Source: Thermoguttaceae bacterium
GTDB lineage: Bacteria > Planctomycetota > Planctomycetia > Pirellulales > Thermoguttaceae
Assembly: GCA_017447865.1 (NCBI GenBank)
Contig: JAFSMO010000059.1
Location: 44,544 to 108,543, forward strand
Direction of reading: 5' to 3'
DNA: 64,000 nt
Shown one piece after another: positions 39,880 to 57,716 of this stretch. A model generated the notes under the pieces. It was given only the letters and a program-made list of their open reading frames with translations. It ran no database searches and was not told the DNA's origin. A program made the translations under genes and the position numbers. Each line of letters begins with the position of its first letter. Position 1 is the first letter of the stretch.

Positions 39880-42800
39880 TCAGGAAATCATCTTTCCAAG
39901 CGTGACTTCCAGTTCTTCCGTTTCTTCTTTCTTCACTTCATCCAAGACGTCATCCAACTCGAACGCCTCGTCTGACGTACTGAGAGGGGCCTCATTCGTC
40001 ACAGGCTGGGGAAGGGCCTCCTCGAGCAGTTCAGCACGCAAGGCGTTTTCTTCCTCGATCTGCTTCTGGAAATCAGGAGCTTGAGCCGTCCAGTCATTGA
40101 CGTATACGTTTCCGAAGGACGTCTGGAACGCCGGGACGGACTCGGAAATTGCTGCCGCCGGTTCAGAAACGGAAAGCGCCGCCTCGGGTTCAGGGGCCGG
40201 AAGTACCACAGGCTCGGGTTCCGAAAGTACCGCAGGCTCAGGGGCCGGAAGTACCGCCGGCTGTGCGGTTGGATTGCCCCAGTCTTCGGTCAGCGTGTCA
40301 GCGTAAACGATGGAACTTCCTTCCTTTTTGCCAAAATTCCGCGCGAAAAGAACCAGGTCGTTGATCTCCACCCTGCCACCGGCGTTGAAATCGGCCGCGC
40401 CCGTGATCGTGAATGGAACGGCCGGCTGGGCAAACACTCTCGCGAAAGCCACCAGGTCATTAATGTCAATGGTTCCCGAGTCGTCAAGGTCATAAACCAC
40501 AGGATAAACGGACGGAAGATCCTGCGTCGTGTTTTCGACCGTGGAGACGACCGTATCGTTCGTGTCTGCCATTACCACCGAATTTTCGATCTGGATTCCA
40601 ATCTCGACTCCCTCAACGGCGTAAGTTTCCGAAAGGTGCACACCGTCTTTTTGAGCGTAGAACTGAATACTTCCAAGAAGCACGTGATCCCCCACGCCTT
40701 CCAGGTCGCAGACCCCGACGTTTTCCACTCCCGCTTTCACGGAGGCCTGGATCTGGATTTTGTTCTCGTTGGCCACTTTCGTGACGGTCACGGAGCTGAA
40801 AATCGTGGAATCGTATTTCACGGAAATGTTTCCGTTCTTTATCGGATTGAATTTTGCCGGGTCGTAGGCAATCTCCGCTGTGTAACTCTTCAGACCGGTT
40901 TCAGTCGCGGAAAGAACGGAGGCCCAGACTTCGACCCAAACGTTCTGCCACTCGTCGATCCACTTTTCACTCGCGGGAATTTCCTGCCGCGATGCGCCGC
41001 CCGATTCGCCGGTTTCATCCAGCGAAGACGTTTTGCGGATGACCAGCGCCGTTTCTCCCTGAACATTCAGATTGATCGTTTGTTCCAGAGCGTCCAGTTG
41101 CTCGACCGGGCAGCCGGAAACCATCGAAACCGACGACGAATCCAGGAAAATCGAGATCTGATCGCCCGTTCCAGCCAAAACCGAACCGGCGGTCCATTTC
41201 AGAACGTTCCCATGGCGGGTAAGTGTGCCGGTGGACGTAATATTCACCCACGAATCGGAGCCGCTGGCCTTTTTCAGGATGGTCACGCTCGCGTTGGCGT
41301 TTTTGAGGTTTTCCTCGAAAGTCCAAATCGCTTCCAGCGAATCTTCCCGGGCGCGGATTTTCTGCTCCACGGAGGTTTGCGCCAGGGTGAGGGTCTGAGT
41401 CGCCTGCGCGTCCGTAAGGGTCAGAATGGAACCGTCCACCGAGCAGAAATCCTCGGCGCGAATCGTCAGCGTGGCCGTAGTTTGCGTAAACTGTTTGTAC
41501 GCGAACGTGAACGTGGCGGTCTTTCCATCGGCCGAAAGCGTAAAGCTGGAAGCGGAAACGCCATCGATCTGGACCGAAGATTTGGAAATCAGATCCGCGC
41601 GGACCGGTTTTTCCAAGGAGAGCGTCACGGTCGTCGGACGAGTGGTCAAGGTTTCCGAAATGGCGGCTCCGTTGACCTTCACACCGGTTTCCGTCAGGCC
41701 GAACGAGAATTCGTTCTGGGTGATTCCCTGGACCGTCATCACGTAGTCGCACTCGGCGCTCTCCGCCGTTCCGACGTAGAGGTAATATTCCGTTCCCGCC
41801 GTCGCCGAGTAGGTGAACGTCCCATTCTGAACCGTCCCCTGGATCTCTGTCCCGGCCTCATCGACGAGAAACACTTCAAGGTCTTCCACGTTTCCTCTCA
41901 ATCCCGCGCCGAACACCACAGAAATGGAGGACTCATCAGCCGTGAAGTGATAAATGTCCATCTGCGTGTCGTAAGGCCAGACAGTACTGGAGCAAAGCGT
42001 CAACTGCGTTTCCGGAGACGAGGCGGACGCGCCCGTCACGTAAAGGAAACCTTCGCGGATCTGAACCGCCTGAGGAAGTGCCCCGATGTTTTCCGAAATA
42101 ACCAGATCAGAAAGGATGAATCGGTCGTCTGCCGGAGACGCTTTTCTGAAGTCGAACGTGTGCAGTGCAATGCCGGAAGTATAATCTCCCGGCGCGGAGG
42201 CCGCAACCAAAACGCCGTTCTCGGAGGTGACGGAGTAGCCAAACCCAAGATCCGAGTCTTCCGCCAGACGCATGGAAGAACCGTTCATGGCAAGCACGAA
42301 AACCATCCCGTTGGAACCGGATTCCGTGGTCCACGTGCCGGTCTGCTGATTGTAAGCGCTGTACGTATTGGCTAAAGGCGCGCCGACAACGACCAGACCG
42401 GCGTCATCAATCGCCACGGAGTAACCGAAATTGGACCAGTTCTCACTCCACGAGAGCTGATTGTTTTGGATCACCGGGGTCTGCCCGTCCGCTTCCAGTT
42501 TAAGGTTCACCTGCCTGGCCAGCATCTGCGTCAAATTGTACGTTTCCGGTGTGGTTTCGCCTCCACTCAAGTCAAACAGATACGACATTTGGTAGGCCGT
42601 TTGCGAACCGACTACCAGAAGGCCCAAAGACTCCGAGTAATCCATGACGAAGCCGAAATCGTGGGAGCTTCCCGGGTTTTTAATCGTCTGGAACGGCGTG
42701 GAATTTCCTGCCGCGTTGATGGAATCCAAATCAAAGAGGTACACCGCGCCGGTCGTTCCATCGCCGTTGGAGTGACCTGGAGCCGAAATCGCCAGCGTGG

Positions 42801-45800: not shown

Positions 45801-47601
45801 CGGCCTTTCCGAAATTCGCCGAGGCGGATCCGTTGTAAGTTTGCACGAATTTCCATTCTGCCGAGGTTCCGGAAGAAATACAGCGGTAAAGGTGGATCGT
45901 TCCAACGAGCGCCAGACCGGTACTCGTCTGCGACGAAACCGCGATCTGGCCGTTCGCGAACGAAAGGGCTCTTCCAAAAGACGGTTCTATTTCCGACGAT
46001 TCAAGGTCCTGCTTCCAAACCCAATTATTGGTCCCCGCGTTCCAGTTAAAGATCTGGACCACCCACTGGCTGTTCTTTTGGCAGGTAACCGCGAGCCAGT
46101 TTCCTTCAAGAGCCGCCGCAGAGCCAAATTTGGTGACGGAATTTCCCGTGAGAGTGGTCTCCAACGTCCAAATTCCCGAATTGTTCTGTTTATAGAAAGA
46201 AAGCTTGCCGTCGGAAACGACGCACAGGCGGTTCTGCTCCGCATCCAGGACCATTTTGGAGCCAAAGCTGCTCACGGTCCCCTGGGTAAGCGTCTGGCCC
46301 AAACTCCAGTTGTCCCCGTCTTTTTCAAAAACGTAAACCATTCCCGAATCTTTTTCCGGAGCCGAAATGAAGAGGTAATTCTCCGCAAGCAAGACGGAAG
46401 TTCCGAATTTCGCGTCTGCCGGAAGAGACTCCACCGTAAGTTCGGTCTGGACCAATTCGCCGTCTTCCAGAGTAAAGAGGTACGCCGCATTTTCGTCCTG
46501 GACTCCTGCCAAAATCGAATCCCCGCAGATGGAGACGGCGATTTTACTGCTTGTACAGGCAAAGGAAGCCGAAGCAGTTTCCGACCATGAAGTTCCCTCG
46601 TACTTCCAAAGGGAGACCGTCGCGGACAAAGTATCTGAATCGTAAGAAACGACGGCGGCCTGGTTCCCATCGGAGTCCAGCGCACGAATCTTGCCGTTTT
46701 CAACGGACCGGGAAATTGTGTTCCAACTCCGATCCACGCCTTCCAACTGCCCAAAGAAAAGGTTCGAGGTGAGGCAATTCACCACCTGGGTTTCCAAGTT
46801 GGAGGAAGTATTCGCGCCAGCCCCGTCCGTGACTGTCAGCGTATAGTTGACCGTCGCGACTTCCGCGCCTTCCAGTGCGTGTACCCGAATGTAAACCGTG
46901 GAATTCTTCGCCGTCGCGGCAGAATTCAAAACCGCGGTAAAATCGTCAATATTCGTCGCGTAACCGAGTGGTTTTTCCGCTGTCTCGGAAGCGTAAAGCT
47001 CAAACGTCAAAGCCGATGCCGTGTCGGTATGGAGCTGAATATTGACGTTTCCGTGGGTCGTATTGAAAGAATAGCAGTCCGAATCATTCGTGCCAAGTTT
47101 CGGCGTGAGCTGACCGACGAGAACCGACTGTTTTATGGTTCCGACCGTCGTGATGCTCATATTCTGCGCGGAAGAAAGTACGTCATTCGTCTTGCTGGGA
47201 AGTTGAAATTCCGACTCAAAATTGCTTCCGCTGAACGCGACGAGCGTATAATTCGCCTCATGTTCCGAAAGGTTGGAAAGCGTATAAGTGATCGCATCCA
47301 CCGACGTCACGGAAACGCCGTCTCTCATGACGCTCTGCATCGAAGAGCTTGCTTGCCCGCCAAAATCGATCGACGTATTGACGCCATTCGTATTCAGGCA
47401 AAAAACCGAGAGCGTTTCCAGATTTCCCGTCTGAAACTCGATCGCGTATGTTTCGTGACTCTCCAAATCGAAAGTCTGGGTCCAGCACACCGCGCCGGTT
47501 CCCGCGGGCTGAATATCTGGAAGATACACAGGGACCGCACTCAGCAGCATACGACTTTCAAGAGATTCTAATTGAAGCGCACGATTTTTTTCACGTTTCA
47601 T
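39880..47601 (-). CDS. Giant secreted protein A (about 2,573 aa): LQLESLESRMLLSA N-terminal motif, PPC-like and FG-GAP-like repeats, Ig-like domains, and a C-terminal cohesin-like module plus dockerin pair
   Basis: The first ATG is at 47601 (MKREKNRALQLESLESRMLLSA); the track start at 47655 is a TTG with no Shine-Dalgarno. There are two clusters of FG-GAP-like repeats at about 45780..46420 and 42185..42840 (e.g. FGATLVLNGSTLAISAPG, FGYSVAIDDAGLVVVGAP). PPC-like modules are present (NDSDCYSF, GDSDVYRF). The C-terminal tail is acidic. Confidence 0.85.
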   Translation of the reverse strand: MKREKNRALQLESLESRMLLSAVPVYLPDIQPAGTGAVCWTQTFDLESHETYAIEFQTGNLETLSVFCLNTNGVNTSIDFGGQASSSMQSVMRDGVSVTSVDAITYTLSNLSEHEANYTLVAFSGSNFESEFQLPSKTNDVLSSAQNMSITTVGTIKQSVLVGQLTPKLGTNDSDCYSFNTTHGNVNIQLHTDTASALTFELYASETAEKPLGYATNIDDFTAVLNSAATAKNSTVYIRVHALEGAEVATVNYTLTVTDGAGANTSSNLETQVVNCLTSNLFFGQLEGVDRSWNTISRSVENGKIRALDSDGNQAAVVSYDSDTLSATVSLWKYEGTSWSETASASFACTSSKIAVSICGDSILAGVQDENAAYLFTLEDGELVQTELTVESLPADAKFGTSVLLAENYLFISAPEKDSGMVYVFEKDGDNWSLGQTLTQGTVSSFGSKMVLDAEQNRLCVVSDGKLSFYKQNNSGIWTLETTLTGNSVTKFGSAAALEGNWLAVTCQKNSQWVVQIFNWNAGTNNWVWKQDLESSEIEPSFGRALSFANGQIAVSSQTSTGLALVGTIHLYRCISSGTSAEWKFVQTYNGSASANFGKAVLLSADRMDVLDFEGNTVTTLTNYSNGDSWNLNVTSAGTKIEFQISKSETEMDVLILGPDGSEQTFTKTIGDDAVSVSFTPSRTGIYKVRLFSEVTRIYYLRTTSNALAAFSSGVAAQPKDRSNEVTVEYAQQILVSSLDSATAVFRDSHGAETVLELQGVVNGNQVVWNVPETVPNGAYTLNVSGLKAVSGASLNTLSVANYEFTGSHTLNLVPVGTEGSDVKRGELEISVGTTFEILDLTEEEAANVNFLVEGLNDYTIERTYDPEIHGLQVRILSGEATERVLVQAVLNASFASDEDLVPGSSVVGTLAASGAAKTQTFDLALASGQSVNLALTVTDPVSQEAVKMELFDSGGMLLAVDTLLAGDSESQWITTLKNTSPAAANYTVKLTNQTSGAADYTLQVISAQAPATATAQINVAGQSFLETFSSVSLEFSENVDLSTLAPSDFQLLLDGAAQTDYYVSACQVQDGTHVVLTFNAPLADGVWTLGLAVNEEESESIQTLAGTNFALTPAVFGIDSTNPAVDSITFSTDSSGKTRIHVKFSEAVLEARPTLTGKIYGQVDLMGGDGSYDEQTNIWTLTTLVELPSDFYTFSVSNIKDLAGNVTEGATTKGLAITSTSAETVSNVVSADPSTGWLPQYMDGSQAFVHQIVGCVTQSRYASFVLDGIEDGEQIAFSFMSPAGYSDPCWNDHIKAEWNAATKSVTIRYDASAHSGGLTAQESAQLTADMIYNGQKSGVFVMYILRNANYENADFTDPMNVQLSELGEKTDAQGNVQKIRQTSAMGTISSAGDSDVYRFTVDGKSTIFAGLTINSITLGTNTNFKIQLYEELPNGSRGTLLAEANSSSMGEKISDSLDVWIENVRNHSDEAQTFQLVVSASNVSASGALYTLVLTENAVFNAEKYTTVNTITELYDSNSAVGHVSSAIASFTSAGIYNSLDAASSAVYGDYVFVGDSTHNQVLIYAPNAAGTALEQVGTVKTSVSVSGDGFGATLVLNGSTLAISAPGHSNGDGTTGAVYLFDLDSINAAGNSTPFQTIKNPGSSHDFGFVMDYSESLGLLVVGSQTAYQMSYLFDLSGGETTPETYNLTQMLARQVNLKLEADGQTPVIQNNQLSWSENWSNFGYSVAIDDAGLVVVGAPLANTYSAYNQQTGTWTTESGSNGMVFVLAMNGSSMRLAEDSDLGFGYSVTSENGVLVAASAPGDYTSGIALHTFDFRKASPADDRFILSDLVISENIGALPQAVQIREGFLYVTGASASSPETQLTLCSSTVWPYDTQMDIYHFTADESSISVVFGAGLRGNVEDLEVFLVDEAGTEIQGTVQNGTFTYSATAGTEYYLYVGTAESAECDYVMTVQGITQNEFSFGLTETGVKVNGAAISETLTTRPTTVTLSLEKPVRADLISKSSVQIDGVSASSFTLSADGKTATFTFAYKQFTQTTATLTIRAEDFCSVDGSILTLTDAQATQTLTLAQTSVEQKIRAREDSLEAIWTFEENLKNANASVTILKKASGSDSWVNITSTGTLTRHGNVLKWTAGSVLAGTGDQISIFLDSSSVSMVSGCPVEQLDALEQTINLNVQGETALVIRKTSSLDETGESGGASRQEIPASEKWIDEWQNVWVEVWASVLSATETGLKSYTAEIAYDPAKFNPIKNGNISVKYDSTIFSSVTVTKVANENKIQIQASVKAGVENVGVCDLEGVGDHVLLGSIQFYAQKDGVHLSETYAVEGVEIGIQIENSVVMADTNDTVVSTVENTTQDLPSVYPVVYDLDDSGTIDINDLVAFARVFAQPAVPFTITGAADFNAGGRVEINDLVLFARNFGKKEGSSIVYADTLTEDWGNPTAQPAVLPAPEPAVLSEPEPVVLPAPEPEAALSVSEPAAAISESVPAFQTSFGNVYVNDWTAQAPDFQKQIEEENALRAELLEEALPQPVTNEAPLSTSDEAFELDDVLDEVKKEETEELEVTLGKMIS
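40331..40494 (-). other. Dockerin-type Ca-binding repeat pair of protein A
   Basis: The two repeats are YDLDDSGTIDINDLVAFARVF and ADFNAGGRVEINDLVLFARNFG. Confidence 0.8.
40500..40971 (-). other. Cohesin-like beta-sandwich module of protein A
   Basis: The sequence is SEKWIDEWQNVWVEVWASV...YTAEIAYDPAKFNP...LLGSIQFYAQKDG. The pattern resembles cohesin domains, judged by eye only. Confidence 0.55.
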
Positions 47602-47760
47602 ACTTTTTTCTTTCCTGTTTCTTAATCGGATAAAAGGCCGTAATGAAACAACCAAAGGAACGGGGCGGGGCTCAAACCCACTCCGTTCGCTTTGCCTGTT
47701 ACGCTGCGGCCTTCCTAACCAATTTCAGGGACGATGATTTCGCCGCGTCCCTGTTCCTGA

Positions 47761-50700: not shown

Positions 50701-53700
50701 GGAACTCGTGGTAAACGTCGCCTGCGCGGTAAGATCCAGATCCTGATCCAGCGTCTTGTCGGACGGAAGAGCCGCACCCGACTGAATGTTCGTTTCCGTC
50801 AACGCCGTGGCGTCCAGACTGTCGTCCGTGATCATCGCGGAACCGTTGACCACCACGGTGTACTCGAAGTTGCTCGACAGACCGTTCTTCGTATCGTTCA
50901 CGGTCACTTCGATCGTGTAGGAGCCGAACCCGGCATCTTCGGGGATCGTGTACGTGGTCGAATCTCCGTAAACGACCTCAAGCGTATCGTTGCCGTCCGG
51001 GCTGAAGAATTTCCCAACCTCTTCGGAAAGGTCAAAGACGTCGCCGGGATCACCGGAAAGGACCAGGCTCGCGCCGTCCAGGACTCGCGGAGCGTCCTCC
51101 GTGTTGGTGATCTTTGCCGTCAGGGTAAAGCTGGAGGTCAGCGCCGCCGCTTTTTTCGTTCCGGCCGCGCCGTCGGTCACATTCACTTTGAACTCGATGG
51201 TCCCGTAGAAGTCTTTGTCCGCCGGCGAGAACCAGATCACTCCGTCCTCAATGTCTCCTTCGAAATCCATGAAATCGGCGGCTTCACCGGTACGGCCGTC
51301 AATGATCGTCGGCATATACGTGAAATCGATTCCAATCGTCAGAGCCGTGCCGTCCACCGGGTCAACGAAGAGGCCGTTGAGATCCCATGAGTAAACCGGC
51401 GTTTCGGATTCGTTGTCTTCGGGCAAGGTCTTGAAAGTGGACTGTCCGGGGATCAGCTCCGGCGCCCAGTTGTAACCGTCGATGCTGATGTAAAGCTGGG
51501 CGTAGTAGGTGGTCGTACCATTGGAAAGCATGTACTCGTAAACCGTGTCCACGTCGCAGCCGGCCGGGATGGTGACTCCAACGCCGTAGTTCTGATCCAC
51601 GCCAGCCAAAACGTCTTCGGAGCCGCGAACGAATTGAATGTTCACGACCTTGTACCCGTCCTCGGCGAAATCGGTGAATTCGCTGAGCGGAATTTCGTAG
51701 TATGCGTCAGCGTCGGAACGACGGTAGGACTTCGTGACGCTCTTGGCGATCGCGTTCAGCTTGATGATGAAATTGCCCGTATTCGCGCATTCCGTGTCGG
51801 TGTTCTGGATTTCGTAGGGGATCACGACCGTCGCGCCGTGCAGGGCTTCCCATTCCTCGCTCGTCCCGACGTTTCCGTCGATCGTGCCGCGGGTGAGCGT
51901 GAAGCCGTCTTCGGTCACAGCCAGGTTCAGAGTGTAAACCTTGTCGTCCTGGAAGATCGTATAGGTCGTTTTATTGTCGTTGACCGAGGTGAGGGCCAGG
52001 GTGCCGGAATCCGTGTCGGTATTGCACTGGGCGAGGACGTTATACTCCTGCGCCTCGGTGCTGGTGAGCGTGAAGCTGCCGGTCTGGGCGGGCGCGTACG
52101 GGTCGCACGGGTCGTTCGTGACCGTGACCGTCACGTCCGTCGTCTTGCCATTGACGCTCAGCGTCAGGACCCCCTCGCCGTAGGCGTAAGGATCCACGCT
52201 GTACGTCAGGGTGGAGCCGGTGAAGTTGTAGTCCGCGAACAGGGTCTCGATCGGGGTCTGGACGTGGGCCTCATCGACCGTGTTGCCGTAAACCGTCTCG
52301 GATTTGACGCTGATGCCGTAGGTCATTTCGCACGTGTAATCGCCCCAGGCCTGTTCCGGGTCAAAGGCGTTTTCGATCGTGACGGCGACTTCCTGAGTGG
52401 CAGCGTTTTCATCGACCGTCTGATTTCTGGCGGCGACGCTCTGAACGCCCGCCCATTCGATCAGGACGTCAAGAGTCACGCTCGTTTCCGCGTCAAAAGC
52501 GTCTTTGACGGTGATTTCGAGCGAGGTTCTGCCGTAAAGGCCTTCGGACGGAGTCCAAGTGATCGATTTGCCGTCGATTGCGCACTCGTCGCCGTTGATT
52601 TCAGCGGCCGAGATTGTCCACTCGTCGCCTTCCGGATCGGCGAAGTAGTTGGTCAGGTCGAACGTATAGGACGGGGTTTCCTCGAGTTTCTGCGTGTCGG
52701 TCAGCGTCGCCGTTTCGGTCTGTTCCGGCGCGAGGTTAACCTTGTCGATCGCCATATTGAGTTCTTTCACTGCCGACTGATCGAACGTGTCCGTGGCGGT
52801 GAGGGAGGTCAGCGTTCCAAACGTGTGCGACTGTTTCAGTGCTGCCGGATCAACGGTCAGTTTGAGGTTCCAGACGCCATTGTTGAACGTCCAGTCGGAA
52901 GCGGTCACGACGCCGTCAGCCCCTTCAAAATTGCAGGTGATGGTCAGCGCATCGCCGTTCTCGATGTCCGCGTCATCGAACAGGGCCGAGACTTCTTCAT
53001 CGGTGAACTGAACAGTGTATTCGGTCTGATTTTCCACGAATCCAATCGGTTCCTTCGCCTCGAGCGTCGTCCGGGTCACGGTCGGCGTGTGGTCGTAGGA
53101 GACGTCGATCGTCGTTTCGGAAATGCTCTCGTTACCGGCTTCGTCGATGGCCTTGAACAGGAACGTCTTCGTGCCGAATTCAAGCGCAACGCCGTCGCCG
53201 GGAACGTAATCGGTCCAGGTTTCCCCGCCGTCGGTGGAGTACTGGAACGCCACGTCTTCCAGGGCCGAAATATTGTCTTCCACTTCCAGATTAAATTCGA
53301 CCGAATCATTTTCATCCAGGAACAGGAAGCCGTAATCGCCTTCTTCAGCCGGAGCGTTGGCGACTTCCGTGACGGTCCAGACCGGGGCGGTCGTATCCAC
53401 GACGAACTCGATGATCGAGTAAACGTCGGACTTGTTGCCCGCGCCGTCCTCGACCTGGAAGGTGTAGCGGTGTACGCCATCTTCCAGAGCCGTATCGTCG
53501 TCAATGATCTTGCCCATGAAGTCAAAGTAATCGCCGATCAGCTCGCCATTGTGGAAAATGGAAAGTTTGCAGCAGTCCGGAACCAGGTCATTGACCACGA
53601 TCGTGTAAGCGATCCGCGGGTGATTATCGTTGGTGAGCGATTGATTCGGAGCGATTTTGTCATCGGACGTCTGGAGCTGGGAGCTCACCAAAGTGGCGGT

Positions 53701-56700
53701 CGGGGCCGTATTGTCCACGTAGAACTGGTACGTGCAGCTCGGTTCCTCCGCGGTCGATTCGTTGGCCGGGACCAGCGTGTCTTTGCCCCAGGCGGTCAGG
53801 ACGAACTTGGCGCCGTCCTCGACGCCGGTTTCGGTGTAGCTGACGTTTGCCGTCTCGCCGGAAGCGACCACCGTGGTCTCTTCACCCACGATTTTGCTGA
53901 GGCTCCAGCCACAGGTTTCGATCCCCGTGTCGTCCGTGATCGTCGCTTCGATGTGGAACTCGTCGCCGGTCAGGAAGTACAGCGTGTCGGTGTTTTTCGT
54001 GACGTTGCCGTCCTCGGAGGCGGTAACGGTGAGGTCGTCCAGCTGGATGGTCGGCGCGAAACTGTCGAACAGGTACGTGACGTCGAAGGAAACCGCCAGT
54101 TCTTTGCCGAACTCGTCAACCAGCGTAAAGGAAACGTTGGAGAAGCGGTCCGGTTCGCCCTGCTCCATGCCGGGGGTCATGGTGAAGACCAGGAAACCTT
54201 CTTCGATGGCGCACGCGCTCACGGCAGCGTCCTGATCGCTATTCCCGGTGATCGTGAAGCCGTCGCCCGTCAGCGTGGCAACCACTTCGTCGTTGAAGTA
54301 CTTCGTCAGGTCAAGCTTGATCTGCTCGTTTTCGTCGCAAAGGCTCTTGCTGAGCGTCTGGACGAATTTCTGCTCGTTCGCGTTGTAGAAGGCCCCCTGA
54401 GCGGTCGGCGCGGTGTTGAAAACGACGCTGAATTCCGCGGACGGATCGCTCGTATTGCCGGCGGCGTCCGTGGCAGTGTACGTGAACGTGTTCACGCCGT
54501 AGAAAAGCGTCACGTCGCACGAGTCAAACGTCTCGTTGGAGGAGTAGGTTTTCGTCTGGGCATTGCCGCCTTCGTCGGTGTAGCTCTGGGTGATCAGAAT
54601 GCTCGCCACGCCGGAAACCGCGTCCTGCGTGTCCAGCGTGAGCGTGTAATCGCTGTTCGTCACGCCGGTGGGGTCTTCCGCCTCGTTCGTGATCGCAACG
54701 GTCGGCGCGGTCGTGTCGAAGTAATACACCAGCCCGTCTTCCGGAGTCACCGTGAACTCATTGCCCGCGGCGTCAACCAGCTTGGCCGTGAACGTGTAAA
54801 TGCCGTCTTCGGGAAGCTCGGACGAGGTGATCTCCGCGCTCTCGGCATCGGCCGCCACTTCGACGGAGGCGACTTCCGTTCCGTCGCAGTAAAGGACCAG
54901 CGTGGCCGGCTCGGTCAGAGCGTCAAACGTGGCCTCAAAGCTCGGGGTGGAGTCCGTGTCGCGCTCGTTGACGCCGCTCAGAGCGAATTCAGCGTCTTCA
55001 ACGTCCACTTTCTGATCCACGAAAATCGTGCAGAGGAACGCGCCTTCGACCTCGTTCCCGAAATTGTCCTTCGCGTCGTAGCGGAACGTGTAGGCCTGAT
55101 TGTGGGCCGGGTTCTCAAGCAGGACTTCCGCCTGATCAAAGTCGACCATTTCAGACGTCGCGATGGGATTTTCCGGATCGTCGCCGTAAACGTAAATCGT
55201 GCCGGACTCGACGGTGTTGAAGTCGGTGAAGGTGAACGTCAGCGCCAGGTCATCCTCGCCGGTGTAATAGTACTCGTTCTCGGCTTTGTCAACCAGCGCG
55301 TCGTTCGCGTCCAGAGCGGCGACCGGCGCCTCGGTGTCGTTCGTCCACTTCAGATCAAACGAAATGTCGGCCGATTTGTCGTACTCGTCCGTGTAAGTGA
55401 TCACGATCCCTTCGGAAACGAACGTGGCGGTCTCGCCGTCGGTGAAGCTCGCGAGCGTCAGAACGATCTCGCCTTCGTCGTTGATTTCCCACGACGTAAC
55501 CGCGTCGCCGAGGTTTTCAATGTTCACGTTGTCGGCCACGATGCTCGAGCCGTCGACCTCTTTGAACAGGTCCGCGACTTTGCCGAGGTTCAGCTCGCCG
55601 TCCGTAACCGTGCCAACGGCCTGCTGGGATTCGTAATCGCTGGCGGTGGTGGAATCGGTCGTCAAACGAACGTCCGCGTCCTGGAGCTTCGTGCCTTTAT
55701 TCGTGACCTGCGGCGGTTTGTTGTAATCGTAGGTGAAGGTCTTGACCGACTGGTTTCCGGCGGCGTCCACAACGGTGAACGTCCAGATGTTCGTGCCGTA
55801 AGACTGATCCAGGGAGTATGCGTACTGGATCGACGAATCCGTCACACCCGTTTCCATCGGTTCGGCAGAATCGCCGCGATTGGAGGTCATCGTCACGCAG
55901 CCATCAGGATTCGTGATCATGAGATTCTCGTCCGTCACCGTGATTTCCAGTGGCGTCGTGGAGGTTTCGACGTACATCGAATCCGTGCCGTAATTCACGT
56001 TGTGGCCTTCAGCCGCCACGACCGGTTTTACGGTGTCGATCGTCAGCACTTCCTTCGAGCCTGTGGTCTGGTTGCCGGCCAGGTCCTCGGTGTAGAAGGA
56101 CAGCGAGTGGCAGCCGTTCGCAAGTCTGGGCAACGTCACGAAGAACTCATCATTCTGGAGTTTGGTGAGGTCTGAGTTCGTGAGCTTTTTACGGTACACC
56201 TCCGTCTGATCATCCTTCACCACGAGCCAGATCCCCATGTCCGGATTGGCGACTTCTTCGGAAACCGCATCCCAGTCGATCTCGCCGCTGGGGCTGATCT
56301 GGAATTCCGGCGTGGGGTCGTTGGTGTAAACCATGCCCTCGTAAATATTGTAGTCGGAAGTCAGCTGGGAAGCCACATCCAGCGCGGGCGCCAGCGAGTC
56401 GAAAACGTACGTGTAGGTCGTTTCACTTTCTTCCAGACCGTTATAACTGAAAGTAACCGTCACGGTGGAATTCGCATGAATGCCGCCCTCCAGAGGAATG
56501 GAAACATTATTGCCTTGGACGGTTACGTCTTCTTCGGTCAGGGTACGTTCGTTGCCTTCCGAATCGACGTAGTTAATGACCACTTTCACCGGGAGATTTT
56601 CCGAATCCGGAAGCGCGAACGTCACCGCGGGATCTTCAAAGGTCGATGGATCTTCATTGGAGATGAACCGGTTTTCCGAATTGGGGACAGCCGTGCCGGA

Positions 56701-57417
56701 AATTCCACCAACTTGCAGGTTTTCGATCTGGGGCGTGGTGGTGATCGTCGGGGAGAGCTGATAATTCGAGTCCTGAATATTGGCCGCGAGCTGCCATTCG
56801 TCCTGGCTAATTTTGCCATCATTGTTCAGGTCGAAGATTTTCGGCAGCTCAACGGTATTCAAATCAATCCCGTGCTGCTTATAGAACATGGCGGCAATTC
56901 TTTGGTTTTGTCCCAGCGAGTTCAAATAACTCCCCTGCACCTGGTAATATTCCTGCTCGGTGCCCTGACCATCCCCATTCAGGTCCAGGGGGTGCGTCAC
57001 AAAAACGGTCATCGGCCCATCCAACTGCGTGTCAGTCGTGAGGGTGAACGAGGACTTCGCGCCCATTTTCACGAGGAGGCACGAGATTTGCTCGTTCTCC
57101 GAGTCACGGACCTGGCTGAGAATCATCGCCGAATCACCATCTTTCAGTCTGAAGGTGGCATCGCTGTTTCCCTGAATGTACACCGCAACGATTTTGTCGG
57201 CGCAGTCTGAGGAAAGGTTGCTCTGAACCGTAAACGTATTCTGATTTACCTCTTTGCAGGCATCGGTGTCATTCGCAATGGCCGTCTGCATAATCGAAGT
57301 CGCTGACAAAAGGTGACGGTTCTCAAGGGCTTCCAACTGCAGGGAACGCGTCTTGCGATTTTCCTGCGTTTTGTGGTTACTGCTGTTCAGGTGACTGGAA
57401 ACAAAGTTCTTTTTCAT
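47761..57417 (-). CDS. Giant secreted protein B (about 3,218 aa): LQLEALENRHLLSA N-terminal motif, N-terminal EF-hand/dockerin-like loops, at least 7 Ig-like modules, a cohesin-like module plus dockerin pair, and a C-terminal HEXXH domain
   Basis: The ATG at 57417 (MKKNFVSS...) has GGTGGA upstream; the track start at 57423 is a TTG. Ig-like domain boundaries recur as D(T/S/N)xAP(T/V/A) (DTVKPVV, DTEAPVA, DTTAPTV, DSFAPTI, DNTAPTA, DTTAPVW). Ca-loops DLNGDGQGTEQE and DLNNDGKISQDE lie at about 56790..56990. Confidence 0.85.
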   Translation of the reverse strand: MKKNFVSSHLNSSNHKTQENRKTRSLQLEALENRHLLSATSIMQTAIANDTDACKEVNQNTFTVQSNLSSDCADKIVAVYIQGNSDATFRLKDGDSAMILSQVRDSENEQISCLLVKMGAKSSFTLTTDTQLDGPMTVFVTHPLDLNGDGQGTEQEYYQVQGSYLNSLGQNQRIAAMFYKQHGIDLNTVELPKIFDLNNDGKISQDEWQLAANIQDSNYQLSPTITTTPQIENLQVGGISGTAVPNSENRFISNEDPSTFEDPAVTFALPDSENLPVKVVINYVDSEGNERTLTEEDVTVQGNNVSIPLEGGIHANSTVTVTFSYNGLEESETTYTYVFDSLAPALDVASQLTSDYNIYEGMVYTNDPTPEFQISPSGEIDWDAVSEEVANPDMGIWLVVKDDQTEVYRKKLTNSDLTKLQNDEFFVTLPRLANGCHSLSFYTEDLAGNQTTGSKEVLTIDTVKPVVAAEGHNVNYGTDSMYVETSTTPLEITVTDENLMITNPDGCVTMTSNRGDSAEPMETGVTDSSIQYAYSLDQSYGTNIWTFTVVDAAGNQSVKTFTYDYNKPPQVTNKGTKLQDADVRLTTDSTTASDYESQQAVGTVTDGELNLGKVADLFKEVDGSSIVADNVNIENLGDAVTSWEINDEGEIVLTLASFTDGETATFVSEGIVITYTDEYDKSADISFDLKWTNDTEAPVAALDANDALVDKAENEYYYTGEDDLALTFTFTDFNTVESGTIYVYGDDPENPIATSEMVDFDQAEVLLENPAHNQAYTFRYDAKDNFGNEVEGAFLCTIFVDQKVDVEDAEFALSGVNERDTDSTPSFEATFDALTEPATLVLYCDGTEVASVEVAADAESAEITSSELPEDGIYTFTAKLVDAAGNEFTVTPEDGLVYYFDTTAPTVAITNEAEDPTGVTNSDYTLTLDTQDAVSGVASILITQSYTDEGGNAQTKTYSSNETFDSCDVTLFYGVNTFTYTATDAAGNTSDPSAEFSVVFNTAPTAQGAFYNANEQKFVQTLSKSLCDENEQIKLDLTKYFNDEVVATLTGDGFTITGNSDQDAAVSACAIEEGFLVFTMTPGMEQGEPDRFSNVSFTLVDEFGKELAVSFDVTYLFDSFAPTIQLDDLTVTASEDGNVTKNTDTLYFLTGDEFHIEATITDDTGIETCGWSLSKIVGEETTVVASGETANVSYTETGVEDGAKFVLTAWGKDTLVPANESTAEEPSCTYQFYVDNTAPTATLVSSQLQTSDDKIAPNQSLTNDNHPRIAYTIVVNDLVPDCCKLSIFHNGELIGDYFDFMGKIIDDDTALEDGVHRYTFQVEDGAGNKSDVYSIIEFVVDTTAPVWTVTEVANAPAEEGDYGFLFLDENDSVEFNLEVEDNISALEDVAFQYSTDGGETWTDYVPGDGVALEFGTKTFLFKAIDEAGNESISETTIDVSYDHTPTVTRTTLEAKEPIGFVENQTEYTVQFTDEEVSALFDDADIENGDALTITCNFEGADGVVTASDWTFNNGVWNLKLTVDPAALKQSHTFGTLTSLTATDTFDQSAVKELNMAIDKVNLAPEQTETATLTDTQKLEETPSYTFDLTNYFADPEGDEWTISAAEINGDECAIDGKSITWTPSEGLYGRTSLEITVKDAFDAETSVTLDVLIEWAGVQSVAARNQTVDENAATQEVAVTIENAFDPEQAWGDYTCEMTYGISVKSETVYGNTVDEAHVQTPIETLFADYNFTGSTLTYSVDPYAYGEGVLTLSVNGKTTDVTVTVTNDPCDPYAPAQTGSFTLTSTEAQEYNVLAQCNTDTDSGTLALTSVNDNKTTYTIFQDDKVYTLNLAVTEDGFTLTRGTIDGNVGTSEEWEALHGATVVIPYEIQNTDTECANTGNFIIKLNAIAKSVTKSYRRSDADAYYEIPLSEFTDFAEDGYKVVNIQFVRGSEDVLAGVDQNYGVGVTIPAGCDVDTVYEYMLSNGTTTYYAQLYISIDGYNWAPELIPGQSTFKTLPEDNESETPVYSWDLNGLFVDPVDGTALTIGIDFTYMPTIIDGRTGEAADFMDFEGDIEDGVIWFSPADKDFYGTIEFKVNVTDGAAGTKKAAALTSSFTLTAKITNTEDAPRVLDGASLVLSGDPGDVFDLSEEVGKFFSPDGNDTLEVVYGDSTTYTIPEDAGFGSYTIEVTVNDTKNGLSSNFEYTVVVNGSAMITDDSLDATALTETNIQSGAALPSDKTLDQDLDLTAQATFTTSSVLKAGTVLKAGTEFAKNFGFQCNEVQDWYETYGFEEDDGEYSASGKVTLNADITLTADITITNKSIAAASGSTIAAGTVAAQDSRFGQDFTIVETVSNVTGVKKIYQASKKVFDLTGDRFVLLRDEISVTVSDPDAISSVTDFSSIGGAVQYVFDADAAENDYYAAVDFSDDSTTERIISIVDPEVEAGTISPFRFVTYDSETGKFYAYYTPYDSTQDRSAQTAVVTISGEEVGLTLSIDYEKPFEVCYTLSHGTDMRLTASSIAAGAGCEFVDPTATLTSGETYTVQMWVKCSLPLLSETLLDGKPYGAQSFIETAYFSLSNVTNVRTYGPSGASESTYEDGVGKLKLGVVETSAGKDFTTESYQIMYLTFTAGENCSISDFARDLESSTYSLVLDNEIVSGIGACGGVDPETGLPDASEGVHLSATQVKTRTLNPNAVKGTSAAKETVVEGNGIYMSFVKEKSNVEVSDTLPKSEAYITEWEGGWLELWVNTQEVGTDIANFKFDVNYDSSLYTASGIEYGASVSNAGAVTFGNGTVNGITGTLTNAVTTEDGFVLIGRIQLTPVRNGGIAAQTIGTTSLGLSLENIELRDSASFWLDVNTQTVVNTKALAVMYDANDDGDIDIDDLVLFAKKFGTNTVVSTDSLAWALDFDNNGLIDVQDLIFFAKNFGATQANGAKIYYPKNYFQIWIGTTLEMSGDSNISDTLESALDSWSEKLGEELNLDVQIIVKEYANEVNGTLAEASLLDCDENGKPNTAVIYLDSDALGMGWYVGKDAEVQAEQYDLYTVLLHELGHALGMTTNYSGYNEFLSKNVKSSNYRDEAGNMHVVIGSHVYDENDLMTETIDVGVRREISDVDAEIVNAARNYGGAILGNATDAIRGVSSETSEWVTVADASAIMSEAKFNQILTAAATRAVMEVSAKRVDAAWQEFEKDENVEVNLSTAVTDDVFESLFDGDFSGMTDGTIREDLEVEMDEE
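48310..48324 (-). other. HEXXH zinc-binding motif (HELGH) in the C-terminal domain of protein B
   Basis: The context is VLLHELGHALGMTTNYSG. The position of the third metzincin His is Thr, so this is not a canonical HExxHxxGxxH. Confidence 0.6.
48683..48857 (-). other. Dockerin-type repeat pair of protein B
   Basis: The two repeats are YDANDDGDIDIDDLVLFAKKFG and LDFDNNGLIDVQDLIFFAKNFG. Confidence 0.8.
48858..49275 (-). other. Cohesin-like module of protein B
   Basis: The sequence is SEAYITEWEGGWLELWVNTQ...FKFDVNYDSSLYT...LIGRIQLTPV. It is colinear with the module in protein A. Confidence 0.55.
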
Positions 57418-57613
57418 GATCAATTTCCACCTTGCGGATGATTAAAACTGGAACTCACACAATATTATAAAAATACTGTCGTGAACAGAATTCTTGAATG
57501 AAACCTCACTGAGGGTTACGGGGACCTTCGTCAGGAATGGCACAAGAAACCCCCAAAATTTGGAGTGCTTCTCACCGGAAAACTGGCGCGATGTATTCAA
57601 GTACATCTTCGTG

Positions 57614-57625
57614 CGTAAATTTACG
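57614..57625. promoter_or_regulatory. Perfect 12-bp palindrome CGTAAATTTACG in the divergent control region
   Basis: I read it directly from the sequence. It lies 197 nt upstream of the gene B start. Confidence 0.4.
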
Positions 57626-57703
57626 GATTTTCAGGAGTAATCCTCCCAGCCTCACTTCTCGCACGGATCTTCCATTTGCAGTGATTCTTCGTTAGATTTC
57701 AGA

Positions 57704-57716
57704 CGCAAATTTACGG
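57704..57716. promoter_or_regulatory. Second copy of the motif (CGCAAATTTACGG), 90 nt from the first
   Basis: It has one mismatch to the palindrome. A third ATTTACG sits at 57741..57747, inside the ATTTTAT-n6-ATAAAAT palindrome (57736..57755). Confidence 0.35.

What the first reader, a model, noticed from the sequence alone, without database searches (positions are those of the whole stretch)
39880..57417. Tandem pair of giant genes (about 3,218 and 2,573 aa) with the same end architecture: LQLExLExRxLLSA head, cohesin-like plus dockerin tail
Two co-directional minus-strand genes occupy 27% of the window and are only about 100-160 nt apart. Their interiors differ. B is built from Ig-like modules with DxxAP boundaries, while A carries two FG-GAP-like propeller clusters and PPC-like modules. 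Both nevertheless keep a near-identical N-terminal motif and a colinear C-terminal cassette, in this order: a W-rich cohesin-like sandwich (SE.(W/Y)I.EW...W.E.W), a two-repeat dockerin, then an acidic tail. Each protein therefore carries a dockerin and a putative cohesin side by side. This suggests head-to-tail self-assembly, or A-B hetero-assembly, into a surface lattice, rather than the classic scaffoldin/enzyme split of cellulosomes. I know of no experimentally characterised system with this layout.
Basis: partly seen in the sequence, partly recalled or inferred. Interest (0 to 1): 0.8.

Follow-up and report, generated by a model that had tools for sequence, protein, structure and literature searches.

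The report
Planctomycete giant surface proteins, cohesin-dockerin tails
Two neighbouring giant genes of a Thermoguttaceae planctomycete encode exported, adhesin-like proteins that end in a real but very divergent cohesin fused to a dockerin (one also carries a metalloprotease), a tail unit that turns out to be common and unannotated across Planctomycetota and probably links such proteins together outside the cell.

Summary
Genes B (47761-57417, 3218 aa) and A (39880-47601, 2573 aa) lie in tandem on the minus strand. They share only an N-terminal LQLExLExRxLLSA motif and a C-terminal cassette.

The motif is the known planctomycete export signal (Pfam PF07595, NCBIfam LEPR-XLL).

AlphaFold2 of the B cassette (pLDDT 92) plus Foldseek show a cohesin fold fused without a linker to a two-F-hand dockerin. 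Pfam scores stay below threshold.

Cohesin-dockerin(-metzincin)-acidic tail is a conserved unit in more than 300 protein clusters, on proteins of 300-7200 aa. Taxa named include Thermoguttaceae, Pirellulales, Gimesia and Phycisphaerae. About 75% of complete members carry the same N-terminal motif.

The order "B with protease, then A without" recurs in five related loci and in one unrelated Pirellulales pair.

Equivalent helix positions of the two dockerin repeats co-vary strongly, as in dual-binding cellulosomal dockerins. I found no cohesin-dockerin covariation within the same protein.

My best reading is a non-cellulosomal, "planctosome"-like surface assembly system. Binding, partners and protease role are untested. 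It is a new variant of a known kind.

The parts
47761..57417 (-). Gene B, 3218 aa. A giant acidic protein (net charge -386) with this order: LEPR-XLL head, Ig-like/cadherin-like array, cohesin, dockerin, metzincin, acidic tail.
   Evidence: ORF and translation. Pfam Big_13, Big_9, Cadherin_5 and EF-hand; NCBIfam OmpL47-type. Orthologs at 83%, 78% and 48% identity. Net charge.
57301..57342 (-). B N-terminal export motif LQLEALENRHLLSA (aa 26-39).
   Evidence: Aligns with the A motif. NCBIfam LEPR-XLL scores 12.4 bits, below the cutoff of 17. It matches the published consensus RRLxxExLExRxLLA.
53392..53676 (-). Best-scoring Big_13 Ig-like module of B (aa 1248-1342). It stands for the D..AP-bounded module array spanning roughly aa 230-2700.
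   Evidence: Pfam Big_13 at 48.3 bits in 3 stretches. D..[AK]P occurs 11 times against about 1 expected.
48865..49290 (-). B cohesin-like beta-sandwich (aa 2710-2851), with the W-rich start SEAYITEWEGGWLELWV.
   Evidence: AF2 model pLDDT 92, pTM 0.83. Foldseek top 35 hits are all cohesins. Pfam Cohesin gives a partial match at E 0.0016, below the cutoff. 4 of the top 5 PDB profile hits are cohesins, at E about 1.
48637..48864 (-). B dockerin (aa 2852-2927). It has two F-hand repeats, DANDDGDIDIDDLVLFAKKFG and DFDNNGLIDVQDLIFFAKNFG, followed by the conserved YPxNF.
   Evidence: The PDB profile matches dockerin 2y3n_B at E 4e-9. Foldseek against 2y3n_B gives TM 0.82, rmsd 1.5. Pfam EF-hand_7 and Dockerin_1 are sub-threshold. 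Repeat symmetry.
48049..48597 (-). B metzincin (MMP-like) catalytic domain (aa 2941-3123). It has HELGHALG at 3032-3039 (nt 48301-48324), a third His at 3074 after an insertion of about 35 aa, and a DLM Met-turn at 3080-3082.
   Evidence: Pfam Matrixin scores 24.2 bits against a cutoff of 24. H, E, H, G and H are invariant in 19 of 19 aligned tails. All PDB profile hits with E below 0.25 are metzincins. The AF2 core has pLDDT above 90. The top 19 Foldseek hits are metzincins. NCBIfam NF038122 gives a partial match.
47764..48048 (-). B helical/acidic C-terminal tail (aa 3124-3218), containing the motif DDVFESL.
   Evidence: The last 60 aa are 33% D+E. A D[DE]xF..W-type motif occurs in 27 of 107 family tails against 0 of 485 interior control windows. 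AF2 confidence is low here.
47602..47760 (-). B-A intergenic spacer, 159 nt, with a hairpin (CAGGGACG...CGTCCCTG) just after the B stop codon.
   Evidence: Sequence. The consensus scans find no convincing promoter or terminator beyond chance.
39880..47601 (-). Gene A, 2573 aa. An acidic protein (net charge -186) with this order: LEPR-XLL head, FG-GAP beta-propeller clusters and PPC-like modules, cohesin, dockerin, Pro/Glu-rich and acidic tail. It has no protease domain.
   Evidence: ORF and translation. Pfam FG-GAP_2 at 41.2 bits. PPC is weak. Orthologs at 84%, 70% and 61% identity.
47536..47577 (-). A N-terminal export motif LQLESLESRMLLSA (aa 9-22).
   Evidence: NCBIfam LEPR-XLL scores 19.0 bits against a cutoff of 17 when the N-terminus is scanned alone. 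Pfam Planc_extracel scores 13.5 bits, sub-threshold.
40504..40983 (-). A cohesin-like module (aa 2207-2366), with the start SEKWIDEWQNVWVEVW.
   Evidence: Aligns with the B cohesin. It matches the family profile over the whole cassette.
40291..40503 (-). A dockerin (aa 2367-2437). Its two repeats, DLDDSGTIDINDLVAFARVF and DFNAGGRVEINDLVLFARNF, are almost perfectly symmetric.
   Evidence: Pfam Dockerin_1 at E 0.021, sub-threshold. Repeat comparison.
39883..40290 (-). A tail (aa 2438-2573). A Pro/Glu-rich linker is followed by an acidic helical end (DEAFELDDVLDE).
   Evidence: Translation. The last 60 aa are 32% D+E. No HExxH motif and no match to the metzincin profile.
57954..59453 (+). Divergently transcribed BBP2 (OmpL-like) beta-barrel porin gene. 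This neighbour is conserved.
   Evidence: Pfam BBP2 at E 3e-53. It holds the same position in L001 and L002 and sits next to a distant cassette gene in L009.
59582..63016 (+). YhdP/AsmA-like 1144-aa protein gene. This neighbour is conserved.
   Evidence: Weak Pfam YhdP match at E 0.006. Genes of 1152-1186 aa hold the same position in L001 and L002.

Best explanation
A and B are two exported, probably cell-surface, Ca2+-binding giant proteins of a Thermoguttaceae planctomycete (Planctomycetota, Pirellulales).

Each protein has three layers:
1. A planctomycete-specific N-terminal export motif (LEPR-XLL / Planc_extracel).
2. A lineage-variable 'passenger' of adhesin-type beta modules. In B these are Ig/cadherin-like arrays; in A they are FG-GAP propellers.
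3. A conserved, mobile C-terminal unit found across Planctomycetota.

The C-terminal unit is a divergent cohesin fused without a linker to a symmetric two-F-hand dockerin. In about half of the family, B included, an MMP-like metzincin follows. An acidic tail closes the protein.

Proposed mechanism. After export, the Ca2+-loaded dockerin of one protein plugs into a cohesin of another. The partner could be A, B, or one of the multi-cohesin relatives seen in the family (whether this genome encodes one was not checked). This would tie long, acidic, adhesin-like stalks into a non-cellulosomal, 'planctosome'-like surface network that displays a zinc protease.

The conserved tandem order 'B with protease, then A without' suggests the two work as a unit.

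Shown here: the gene structures, the motifs, the three folds, intact catalytic and Ca2+-binding residues, family-wide conservation, synteny, and dockerin two-fold symmetry.

Inferred: export route and surface location, cohesin-dockerin binding and its partners, and protease activity and substrates.
For: Folds.
- The cassette model is confident (pLDDT 92, pTM 0.83). It hits only cohesins plus one dockerin in the PDB.
- The dockerin profile matches dockerin 2y3n_B at E 4e-9.
- The B tail model and profile hit metzincins. H-E-H-G-H is invariant in 19 of 19 aligned tails.

Family.
- The profile search found 1030 clusters at E<1e-3 and 326 at E<1e-10. Most match the whole cassette in one stretch, on proteins of 300-7218 aa.
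- 79 of 106 complete members carry the LExLExRxLL head and 53 of 106 carry the metzincin.
- HExxH lies at a fixed offset of 101-104 or 123-127 aa after the cassette.
- B shares only aa ~2655-3106 with unrelated members.

Signs of trans-assembly.
- Relatives with 2-4 cohesins or repeated cassettes exist, as do proteins made of 4-6 dockerins.
- In L014 an M23 peptidase carries the cassette and lies three genes downstream of an M23+dockerin gene.
- Helix positions 10, 11 and 14 are identical in the two dockerin repeats in 77%, 62% and 71% of proteins, against 27%, 19% and 17% after shuffling. Variable positions 2, 4, 19 and 22 show no such symmetry. From established knowledge, positions 10, 11, 17, 18 (and 22) are the cohesin-recognition positions of type I dockerins, and this kind of symmetry is the signature of dual-binding cellulosomal dockerins.

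Location.
- In T. immobilis, 20 proteins with this head motif were detected by proteomics. 8 of them were found only in the SDS-soluble fraction (S3) (PMC8567305).

Pair and context.
- The order 'B type then A type' is conserved in the window, L001, L002, L003, L011 and L012.
- A second, unrelated pair in L007 also runs protease-plus then protease-minus.
- The BBP2 porin and YhdP-like neighbours are conserved.
Against: - No binding, localisation or activity data exist for any member of this family.
- Pfam Cohesin and Dockerin scores for A and B are below the gathering thresholds.
- The cohesin and dockerin are fused with almost no linker, and the model's pTM of 0.83 implies a fixed mutual orientation. 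The unit could therefore be a single rigid structural domain rather than a plug-and-socket pair.
- I found no covariation between dockerin recognition positions and the cohesin of the same protein. The maximum APC was 0.22, and 1 of 10512 pairs exceeded 0.2. Self or homotypic binding is thus unsupported. Power is low, with Neff about 100.
- Outside Thermoguttaceae most cassette genes sampled were single (L004, L005, L008, L009, L014). In L013 the upstream LEPR gene has no cassette.
- In B's long-tail class the third zinc ligand is displaced by an insertion of about 35 aa, so activity is not certain.
Confidence: 0.55

Rival explanations
1. Cis structural or sorting module. The cohesin-dockerin(-metzincin)-acidic tail unit is one rigid C-terminal domain. 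It would serve export, Ca2+-driven folding, surface anchoring or maturation of LEPR-XLL cargo, by analogy with C-terminal sorting domains such as the T9SS CTD or PEP-CTERM. The metzincin would act as a self- or partner-processing protease. It would not be an intermolecular connector.
For: - The cohesin's last strand runs straight into the first Ca2+ loop, and the pTM of 0.83 implies a fixed geometry.
- The whole unit is inherited as one block at the C-terminus of otherwise unrelated proteins, with fixed spacing.
- It co-occurs with an N-terminal signal in 75% of members.
- A conserved extreme-C-terminal motif D[DE]xF..W occurs in 27 of 107 tails against 0 of 485 controls.
- No inter-domain specificity covariation was found.
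Against: - Position-specific two-fold symmetry of the dockerin helices is hard to explain unless both faces can engage a partner.
- Multi-cohesin, multi-cassette and multi-dockerin relatives look like scaffolds and clients.
- Some cassettes are internal rather than C-terminal, for example P0017 and P0021.
- No dedicated sorting enzyme is known or seen nearby.
Confidence: 0.25
2. Dedicated A-B heterocomplex. B's dockerin binds A's cohesin, or the reverse, and B's metzincin processes A. The pair would then form one two-component surface fibre or lattice.
For: - The 'protease-plus then protease-minus' tandem order is conserved in six Thermoguttaceae loci and in an independent Pirellulales pair.
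- The spacer is short, with no convincing terminator.
- The A and B dockerins differ at recognition positions 11 and 18.
Against: - Most cassette proteins sampled outside this lineage are unpaired.
- The L013 partner lacks the cassette.
- No binding prediction could be run.
- Conservation among relatives may reflect shared ancestry only.
Confidence: 0.15
3. Classical cellulosome-type polysaccharide-degrading complex.
For: Cohesin and dockerin folds are present.
Against: - Neither A, B nor their neighbours carry a glycoside hydrolase, CBM or SLH domain.
- Each protein has one cohesin.
- The only catalytic domain is a metzincin.
- Another family member carries an M23 peptidase.
Confidence: 0.03

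Closest known systems
Non-cellulosomal cohesin/dockerin proteins. Surveyed by Peer et al. 2009 (cited in PMC6461901 and PMC9012536). Solved examples are the C. perfringens GH84C/GH33 cohesins (2jh2, 2w1n, 2vo8) and the A. fulgidus cohesin (2xdh).
   Same: Cohesin and dockerin folds occur outside cellulose degradation. These structures are among the best structural matches to the B cassette.
   Different: Here the cohesin is fused directly to the dockerin as one conserved cassette. It usually carries a metzincin and an acidic tail, and it sits on giant proteins with the planctomycete export motif. Sequence similarity to Pfam Cohesin is below threshold.
Ruminococcus bromii Amy4 (amylosome).
   Same: One protein carries both a cohesin and a dockerin, and its dockerin recognises its own cohesin, allowing self-aggregation (PMC4611034).
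   Different: Amy4 is a Firmicute amylase with a normal signal peptide, and its modules are not a fused cassette. No binding data exist for the planctomycete unit, and covariation gives no support for self-recognition.
C. thermocellum scaffoldin CipA CohI9-X-DocII (3kcp, 4fl4).
   Same: Cohesin and dockerin lie in one chain. It is the top Foldseek hit (E 2.8e-6).
   Different: An X module separates the two in CipA, and the relative orientation differs (rmsd about 24 over both domains). CipA has nine cohesins and a CBM and organises cellulases.
The 'planctosome' hypothesis for Nemodlikiaceae (Andrei et al. 2019, PMC6461901).
   Same: It proposes planctomycete cohesin/dockerin proteins that organise Zn-dependent peptidases on the cell surface, including an adaptor protein with both a dockerin and a cohesin.
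   Different: In that model cohesin, dockerin and peptidases sit on separate proteins anchored by a lamin-tail domain, and it is purely hypothetical. Here cohesin, dockerin and metzincin are fused in one C-terminal unit on LEPR-XLL giant proteins. No lamin-tail anchor is seen.
Planctomycete LEPR-XLL / Planc_extracel proteins (Studholme et al. 2004; T. immobilis proteome, PMC8567305).
   Same: The same N-terminal consensus RRLxxExLExRxLLA, thought to be an export signal, occurs on large proteins with Ig-like, protease or other extracellular domains. Some of these were detected only in the SDS-soluble fraction.
   Different: The papers I could read do not describe a link between this head and a cohesin-dockerin-metzincin tail. 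Peer et al. 2009 was not available to me.
Giant Ca2+-binding repeat adhesins, such as Bap/LapA/RTX-type and Big_13/cadherin-like proteins.
   Same: Very long, very acidic proteins with arrays of Ig-like or cadherin-like modules. The distant full-length hits of B are Ig-like giant proteins of Acinetobacter and Limnobaculum.
   Different: No RTX repeats, no T1SS signal and no T1SS genes nearby. The head and tail modules are planctomycete-specific.

Membership tests
Cohesin (PF00963; cohesin fold) | Nine-stranded flattened beta-sandwich (jelly-roll) cohesin fold. | tested here: met
   AF2 model of the B cassette has pLDDT 92. The top 35 Foldseek PDB hits are cohesins, with TM (target-normalised) up to 0.73 for 2vo8 and probability 1.0.
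Cohesin (PF00963; cohesin fold) | Sequence match to the Pfam Cohesin model above the gathering score. | tested here: not met
   B scores 19.1 bits, partial (model positions 17-74 of 139), against a cutoff of 24.1. A has no hit. 3 of 28 family members hit at E<=0.01. The family profile against PDB puts cohesins at 4 of the top 5 places, but at E about 1.
Cohesin (PF00963; cohesin fold) | Binds a dockerin in a Ca2+-dependent manner. | not testable with these tools
   No multimer prediction or model coordinates were available. It needs ITC, ELISA or pull-down.
Dockerin (PF00404) | Two tandem ~22-aa F-hand repeats with Ca2+-ligand positions 1, 3, 5, 9 and 12 and a following helix. | tested here: met
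   B has DANDDGDIDIDD and DFDNNGLIDVQD. A has DLDDSGTIDIND and DFNAGGRVEIND. D1 (138 of 138 in repeat 1, 135 of 138 in repeat 2) and D12 (138 of 138 in both) are near-invariant to invariant in the two repeats. Foldseek against 2y3n_B gives TM 0.82, rmsd 1.5.
Dockerin (PF00404) | Sequence match above the Pfam gathering score. | tested here: not met
   A scores 15.4 bits and B 12.2 bits against a cutoff of 22.9. However, 10 of 28 family members hit Dockerin_1 (best E 3e-8), and the family profile hits dockerin 2y3n_B at E 4e-9.
Dockerin (PF00404) | Internal two-fold symmetry at the cohesin-contact helix positions (dual binding mode of type I dockerins). | tested here: met
   Positions 10, 11 and 14 are identical between the repeats in 77%, 62% and 71% of 138 cassettes, against 27%, 19% and 17% after shuffling. 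Positions 2, 4, 19 and 22 show no symmetry. These are the top covarying pairs in the cassette.
LEPR-XLL / Planc_extracel N-terminal export motif (NF012209, PF07595) | Motif RRLxxExLExRxLLA within the first ~50 residues of a large extracellular-type protein. | tested here: met
   A has RALQLESLESRMLLSA at aa 7-22 and B has RSLQLEALENRHLLSA at aa 24-39. The consensus comes from PMC8567305.
LEPR-XLL / Planc_extracel N-terminal export motif (NF012209, PF07595) | Score above the curated cutoff. | tested here: inconclusive
   NCBIfam: A scores 19.0 bits against a cutoff of 17 when the N-terminus is scanned alone, and B scores 12.4 bits. Pfam PF07595: A scores 13.5 bits against a cutoff of 25.5, and B is not listed.
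LEPR-XLL / Planc_extracel N-terminal export motif (NF012209, PF07595) | Directs export to the cell surface. | not testable with these tools
   Only indirect literature evidence exists, from T. immobilis fractionation.
Metzincin / matrixin-like zinc peptidase (PF00413, M10) | HExxHxxGxxH zinc-binding motif plus a Met-turn. | tested here: inconclusive
   B has HELGHALG, then an insertion of about 35 aa before the invariant third His (H3074), and then DLM. Short-tail relatives have the canonical HELGHLLGYEH. H, E, H, G and H are invariant in 19 of 19 tails.
Metzincin / matrixin-like zinc peptidase (PF00413, M10) | Catalytic-domain fold and profile match. | tested here: met
   Pfam Matrixin scores 24.2 bits against a cutoff of 24 on the tail alone. 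All PDB profile hits with E below 0.25 are metzincins, with E from 0.006. Residues 31-200 of the AF2 tail model have block-mean pLDDT 83-98. The top 19 Foldseek hits are MMPs, leishmanolysin and astacin, with TM up to 0.60.
Cellulosome (system) | Multi-cohesin scaffoldin plus dockerin-bearing carbohydrate-active enzymes. | tested here: not met
   A and B each have one cohesin. Neither the genes nor their neighbours carry a GH, CBM or SLH domain.
FG-GAP beta-propeller repeats (PF14312), protein A | Pfam match above the gathering score. | tested here: met
   FG-GAP_2 at 41.2 bits against a cutoff of 23, in 2 stretches. The same family is recorded for the orthologs.
PPC pre-peptidase C-terminal domain (PF04151), protein A | Pfam match above the gathering score. 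| tested here: not met
   2 of 5 candidate segments hit PPC, at 16.1 and 14.9 bits against a cutoff of 25.9. A 'faint' PPC hit is on record for the distant A-type homolog P0008.

The most novel reading that the evidence does not exclude
The cohesin-dockerin-metzincin-acidic tail unit, with its terminal D[DE]xF..W motif, may be the C-terminal half of a Planctomycetota-specific display pathway whose N-terminal half is the LEPR-XLL signal. Cargo of any size would be exported, then self-organised on the outer membrane by symmetric dockerins plugging into cohesins of partner or scaffold proteins. Protease-plus members such as B would mature or release protease-minus partners such as A. This would be a phylum-wide, protein-based surface-assembly and processing system, distinct from cellulosomes, S-layers and sortase or exosortase systems.
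Probability: 0.2. Interest if true: 0.8.

Novelty: new variant of a known kind. Interest (0 to 1): 0.55.

Why it matters
Planctomycetes have unusual cell envelopes, and how they build and decorate their surface is poorly understood.

This locus exposes a large protein family that public annotation does not name. Relatives are labelled 'hypothetical protein' or 'Calx-beta domain-containing protein'. In this family a known planctomycete export motif is coupled to a fused cohesin-dockerin, often with a metzincin.

If the modules bind in trans, the family would be the first widespread non-cellulosomal cohesin-dockerin assembly system in a Gram-negative phylum. That would give the speculative 'planctosome' a concrete, testable molecular basis.

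The cassette is present in cultured Gimesia species, which makes biochemistry or genetics on a cultured organism conceivable.

The compact, symmetric, highly diversified cohesin-dockerin pairs could also serve as orthogonal connectors for synthetic protein scaffolds.

Tried and rejected
- Word-indexed homolog search with the A cassette found nothing. With the 28-sequence profile it returned only 2 proteins. The exhaustive representative search was needed.
The 2-sequence alignment gave 7 genome loci.
- The window's own protein A is not on record in the contig index.
- Peer et al. 2009, the key survey of non-cellulosomal cohesins, is not held. Its content is cited only through other papers.
I therefore could not measure the cis cohesin-dockerin interface or run A-B multimer predictions. 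Only pTM and covariation bear on that question.
- The covariation search for cohesin-dockerin specificity coupling was negative, with low power.
- The cellulosome reading was rejected because no CAZyme, CBM or SLH domains are present.
- PPC modules in A could not be confirmed above threshold.
- Promoter and terminator scans were no better than shuffled sequence, so the operon status of B-A rests only on the short spacer and conserved order.
- A link between having the LEPR head and having the metzincin was tested and not found: 42 of 79 against 11 of 27.

Full report
**1. Observation**

The window holds two co-directional minus-strand ORFs at the stated place. B spans 47761-57417 and encodes 3218 aa from its ATG. 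A spans 39880-47601 and encodes 2573 aa from its ATG; the ORF extends to a TTG at 47655. Gene calls in orthologous contigs start at the same residues. The spacer is 159 nt.

BLASTP of A against B aligns only two regions. One is the C-terminal cassette (A 2208-2441 with B 2712-2930, 28% identity, E 3e-13). The other is the N-terminal motif (A 2-25 with B 19-42, E 0.002). No other ORF in the 64 kb has either feature.

The interiors differ as described.
- B has Big_13, Big_9, Cadherin_5 and OmpL47-type Ig-like modules and an EF-hand. D..[AK]P boundaries occur 11 times against about 1 expected.
- A has FG-GAP_2 and only weak PPC matches.
- Both proteins are extremely acidic, with net charges of -186 (A) and -386 (B).

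**2. The head**

The motif is the known planctomycete N-terminal signal. When A's N-terminus is scanned alone it passes the NCBIfam LEPR-XLL cutoff (19.0 against 17 bits). B scores 12.4 bits. Pfam Planc_extracel is sub-threshold.

The published consensus RRLxxExLExRxLLA (Studholme 2004) is regarded as a novel export signal. In Tuwongella immobilis, 20 proteins with the motif were detected by proteomics, and 8 of them were found only in the SDS-soluble fraction (S3) (PMC8567305).

**3. The cassette is a cohesin fused to a dockerin**

Pfam alone is inconclusive. Cohesin scores 19 bits as a partial match in B, and Dockerin_1 scores 15 bits in A. Both are below threshold.

An exhaustive profile search with the A+B cassette found 1030 clusters at E<1e-3 and 326 at E<1e-10. 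Most match the whole cassette in one stretch.

With a 28-sequence alignment, AlphaFold2 gave a confident model of the B cassette, with pLDDT 92 and pTM 0.83. Foldseek against the PDB returned cohesins for the first 35 hits. These include CipA CohI9-X-DocII, C. perfringens and A. fulgidus non-cellulosomal cohesins, and many type I cohesins, with TM up to 0.73. The dockerin 2y3n_B also matched, with TM 0.82 and rmsd 1.5.

The family profile hits that same dockerin at E 4e-9. With the cohesin part alone, 4 of the 5 best PDB sequences are cohesins, though at E about 1.

The last cohesin strand runs directly into the first Ca2+ loop, so there is no linker.

**4.

In 67 of 110 full-cassette proteins an HExxH motif lies at a fixed offset after the cassette, either 101-104 aa or 123-127 aa.

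Aligning these tails shows invariant H, E, H, G and a third H, followed by a DLM Met-turn. Short-tail members have the canonical HExxHxxGxxH. Long-tail members, B included, have an insertion of about 35 aa before the third His.

The evidence that B's tail is a metzincin catalytic domain is consistent across methods:
- Pfam Matrixin reaches its cutoff (24.2 against 24 bits).
- The profile's PDB hits with E below 0.25 are MMPs, karilysin, snapalysin and fragilysin.
- The AF2 core is confident.
- The top 19 Foldseek hits are MMPs, leishmanolysin and astacin.

So B ends in cohesin, dockerin, metzincin and acidic tail. A ends in cohesin, dockerin, a Pro/Glu-rich linker and an acidic tail.

A short motif D[DE]xF..W near the extreme C-terminus occurs in 27 of 107 family tails and 0 of 485 interior control windows. 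B has DDVFESL and A has the similar DEAFELD.

**5. The family**

Cassette proteins range from about 300 to 7218 aa. Of 106 complete members longer than 600 aa, 79 carry the LExLExRxLL head and 53 carry the metzincin. The two features are not correlated.

B shares only aa ~2655-3106 with unrelated members. The C-terminal unit therefore behaves as a mobile block on variable passengers.

Some relatives carry 2-4 cohesins or repeated cassettes, and others are arrays of 4-6 dockerins. One member is an M23 peptidase that lies three genes downstream of an M23+dockerin gene.

Named sources include Thermoguttaceae, Pirellulales, Planctomycetia and Phycisphaerae MAGs, and cultured Gimesia maris and G. 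chilikensis. There the proteins are annotated as 'Calx-beta domain-containing' or 'hypothetical'.

**6. Organism and synteny**

The closest genome locus is a Thermoguttaceae MAG, at 76% identity over the A cassette.

The order 'B type with protease, then A type without' is conserved in L001 (B 83%, A 84% identity), L002 (B 48%, A 61%), L003, L011 and L012. An unrelated Pirellulales pair in L007 has the same protease-plus then protease-minus order.

The divergent BBP2 porin, the YhdP-like gene and a PMT_2 gene are conserved in L001 and L002. A BBP2 gene also sits upstream of a distant cassette gene in L009.

Elsewhere the cassette genes sampled are mostly single. In L013 the upstream LEPR gene lacks the cassette.

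**7. Functional signal in the dockerin**

I ran a covariation analysis on 138 cassettes (Neff about 100). The strongest couplings by far link equivalent positions of the two dockerin repeats: positions 10, 11, 13, 14, 17, 18, 20 and 21.

The two repeats carry the same residue at positions 10, 11 and 14 in 77%, 62% and 71% of proteins, against 27%, 19% and 17% after shuffling. Other variable positions (2, 4, 19, 22) show no symmetry.

Position-specific symmetry of this kind is the known signature of dual-binding-mode type I dockerins. From established knowledge, recognition there uses positions 10, 11, 17, 18 and 22. It argues for a functional binding surface whose specificity diversifies.

By contrast, no convincing coupling links these positions to the cohesin of the same protein. 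The maximum APC is 0.22, and 1 of 10512 inter-domain pairs exceeds 0.2. That is weak evidence against obligatory self-recognition.

**8. Interpretation**

The best-supported reading is as follows (confidence about 0.55). A and B are exported, surface-associated, Ca2+-binding stalk proteins. Their conserved C-terminal unit provides a plug (dockerin) and a socket (cohesin) for non-covalent assembly with each other, or with multi-cohesin and dockerin-only relatives. Together they would display a zinc protease. This amounts to a concrete, fused-module version of the hypothetical 'planctosome' (PMC6461901).

Rivals:
- The unit may be a rigid cis module for export, sorting or maturation. The zero linker, pTM of 0.83, block inheritance and terminal motif favour this (confidence about 0.25).
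- A and B may form a dedicated heterocomplex (about 0.15).
- A classical cellulosome is disfavoured because no CAZyme, CBM or SLH domain is present.

**9. Novelty**

Cohesin and dockerin on one protein is not unprecedented. Examples are CipA (3kcp), adaptor scaffoldins, and R. bromii Amy4, whose dockerin binds its own cohesin (PMC4611034). Planctomycete cohesin/dockerin proteins and the head motif are also in the literature.

What I did not find described, within a limited library, are three things:
- the fused cohesin-dockerin(-metzincin)-acidic tail unit;
- its coupling to the LEPR-XLL head across hundreds of protein clusters;
- the conserved protease-plus then protease-minus gene pair.

I therefore rate the finding a new variant of a known kind, with moderate interest.

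Noticed in passing
window 14959-23562 (+): A third giant ORF (2867 aa) carries four redoxin/AhpC-TSA/thioredoxin-like domains in its C-terminal half. This is an unusually large multi-thioredoxin protein. It has no LEPR motif and no cassette.
   Followed up: no
window 29007-31772 (-): A 921-aa protein with DUF642, a weak Big_13 match and a C-terminal PEP-CTERM sorting motif. The genome therefore also uses an exosortase-type surface-protein route.
   Followed up: no
window 37409-39694 (+): A 761-aa ORF convergent with gene A has no Pfam match. An ORF of about 760 aa occupies the same position in L001 and L003 but not in L002. Its function is unknown.
   Followed up: partly
window 47764-48048 and 39883-40290; tails of P0028, P0032, P0062, P0121 and others: A short conserved motif lies near the extreme C-terminus of many cassette proteins, for example DDLFADW, DDVFSDWAGPIL and B's DDVFESL. 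It occurs in 27 of 107 tails and 0 of 485 interior control windows. It may be a recognition or sorting signal.
   Followed up: partly
P0017, P0021, P0029, P0036, P0056 (cassette relatives); P0076, P0103, P0148: Some relatives carry 2-4 cohesin-like modules or two full cassettes. Others consist of 4-6 tandem dockerins. These are scaffoldin-like and multi-plug architectures within the same family.
   Followed up: partly
L014 2276-3526 and 10001-14068: In an unrelated metagenomic contig, a Peptidase_M23 protein carries the cassette. An M23+Dockerin_1 gene lies three genes upstream. This suggests that peptidoglycan or protein hydrolases are clients of the system.
   Followed up: no
window 57418-57953: The 536-bp spacer between B and the divergent BBP2 gene is markedly AT-rich at its BBP2-proximal end. 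The window's lowest GC, 47%, falls in 56001-58000. It probably holds divergent promoters, but the consensus scan is not above chance.
   Followed up: partly
window 47730-47757 (-): A GC-rich hairpin (CAGGGACG-N12-CGTCCCTG) lies immediately after the B stop codon, with no T-run after it. It could be an RNA-processing or attenuation element between B and A.
   Followed up: no
L011 1-9695: The B-type gene upstream of the A-type protein P0008 is called as two genes, of 2679 aa and 615 aa. The cassette and metzincin lie on the 615-aa piece. This is probably a frameshift or assembly break in a single giant gene.
   Followed up: no
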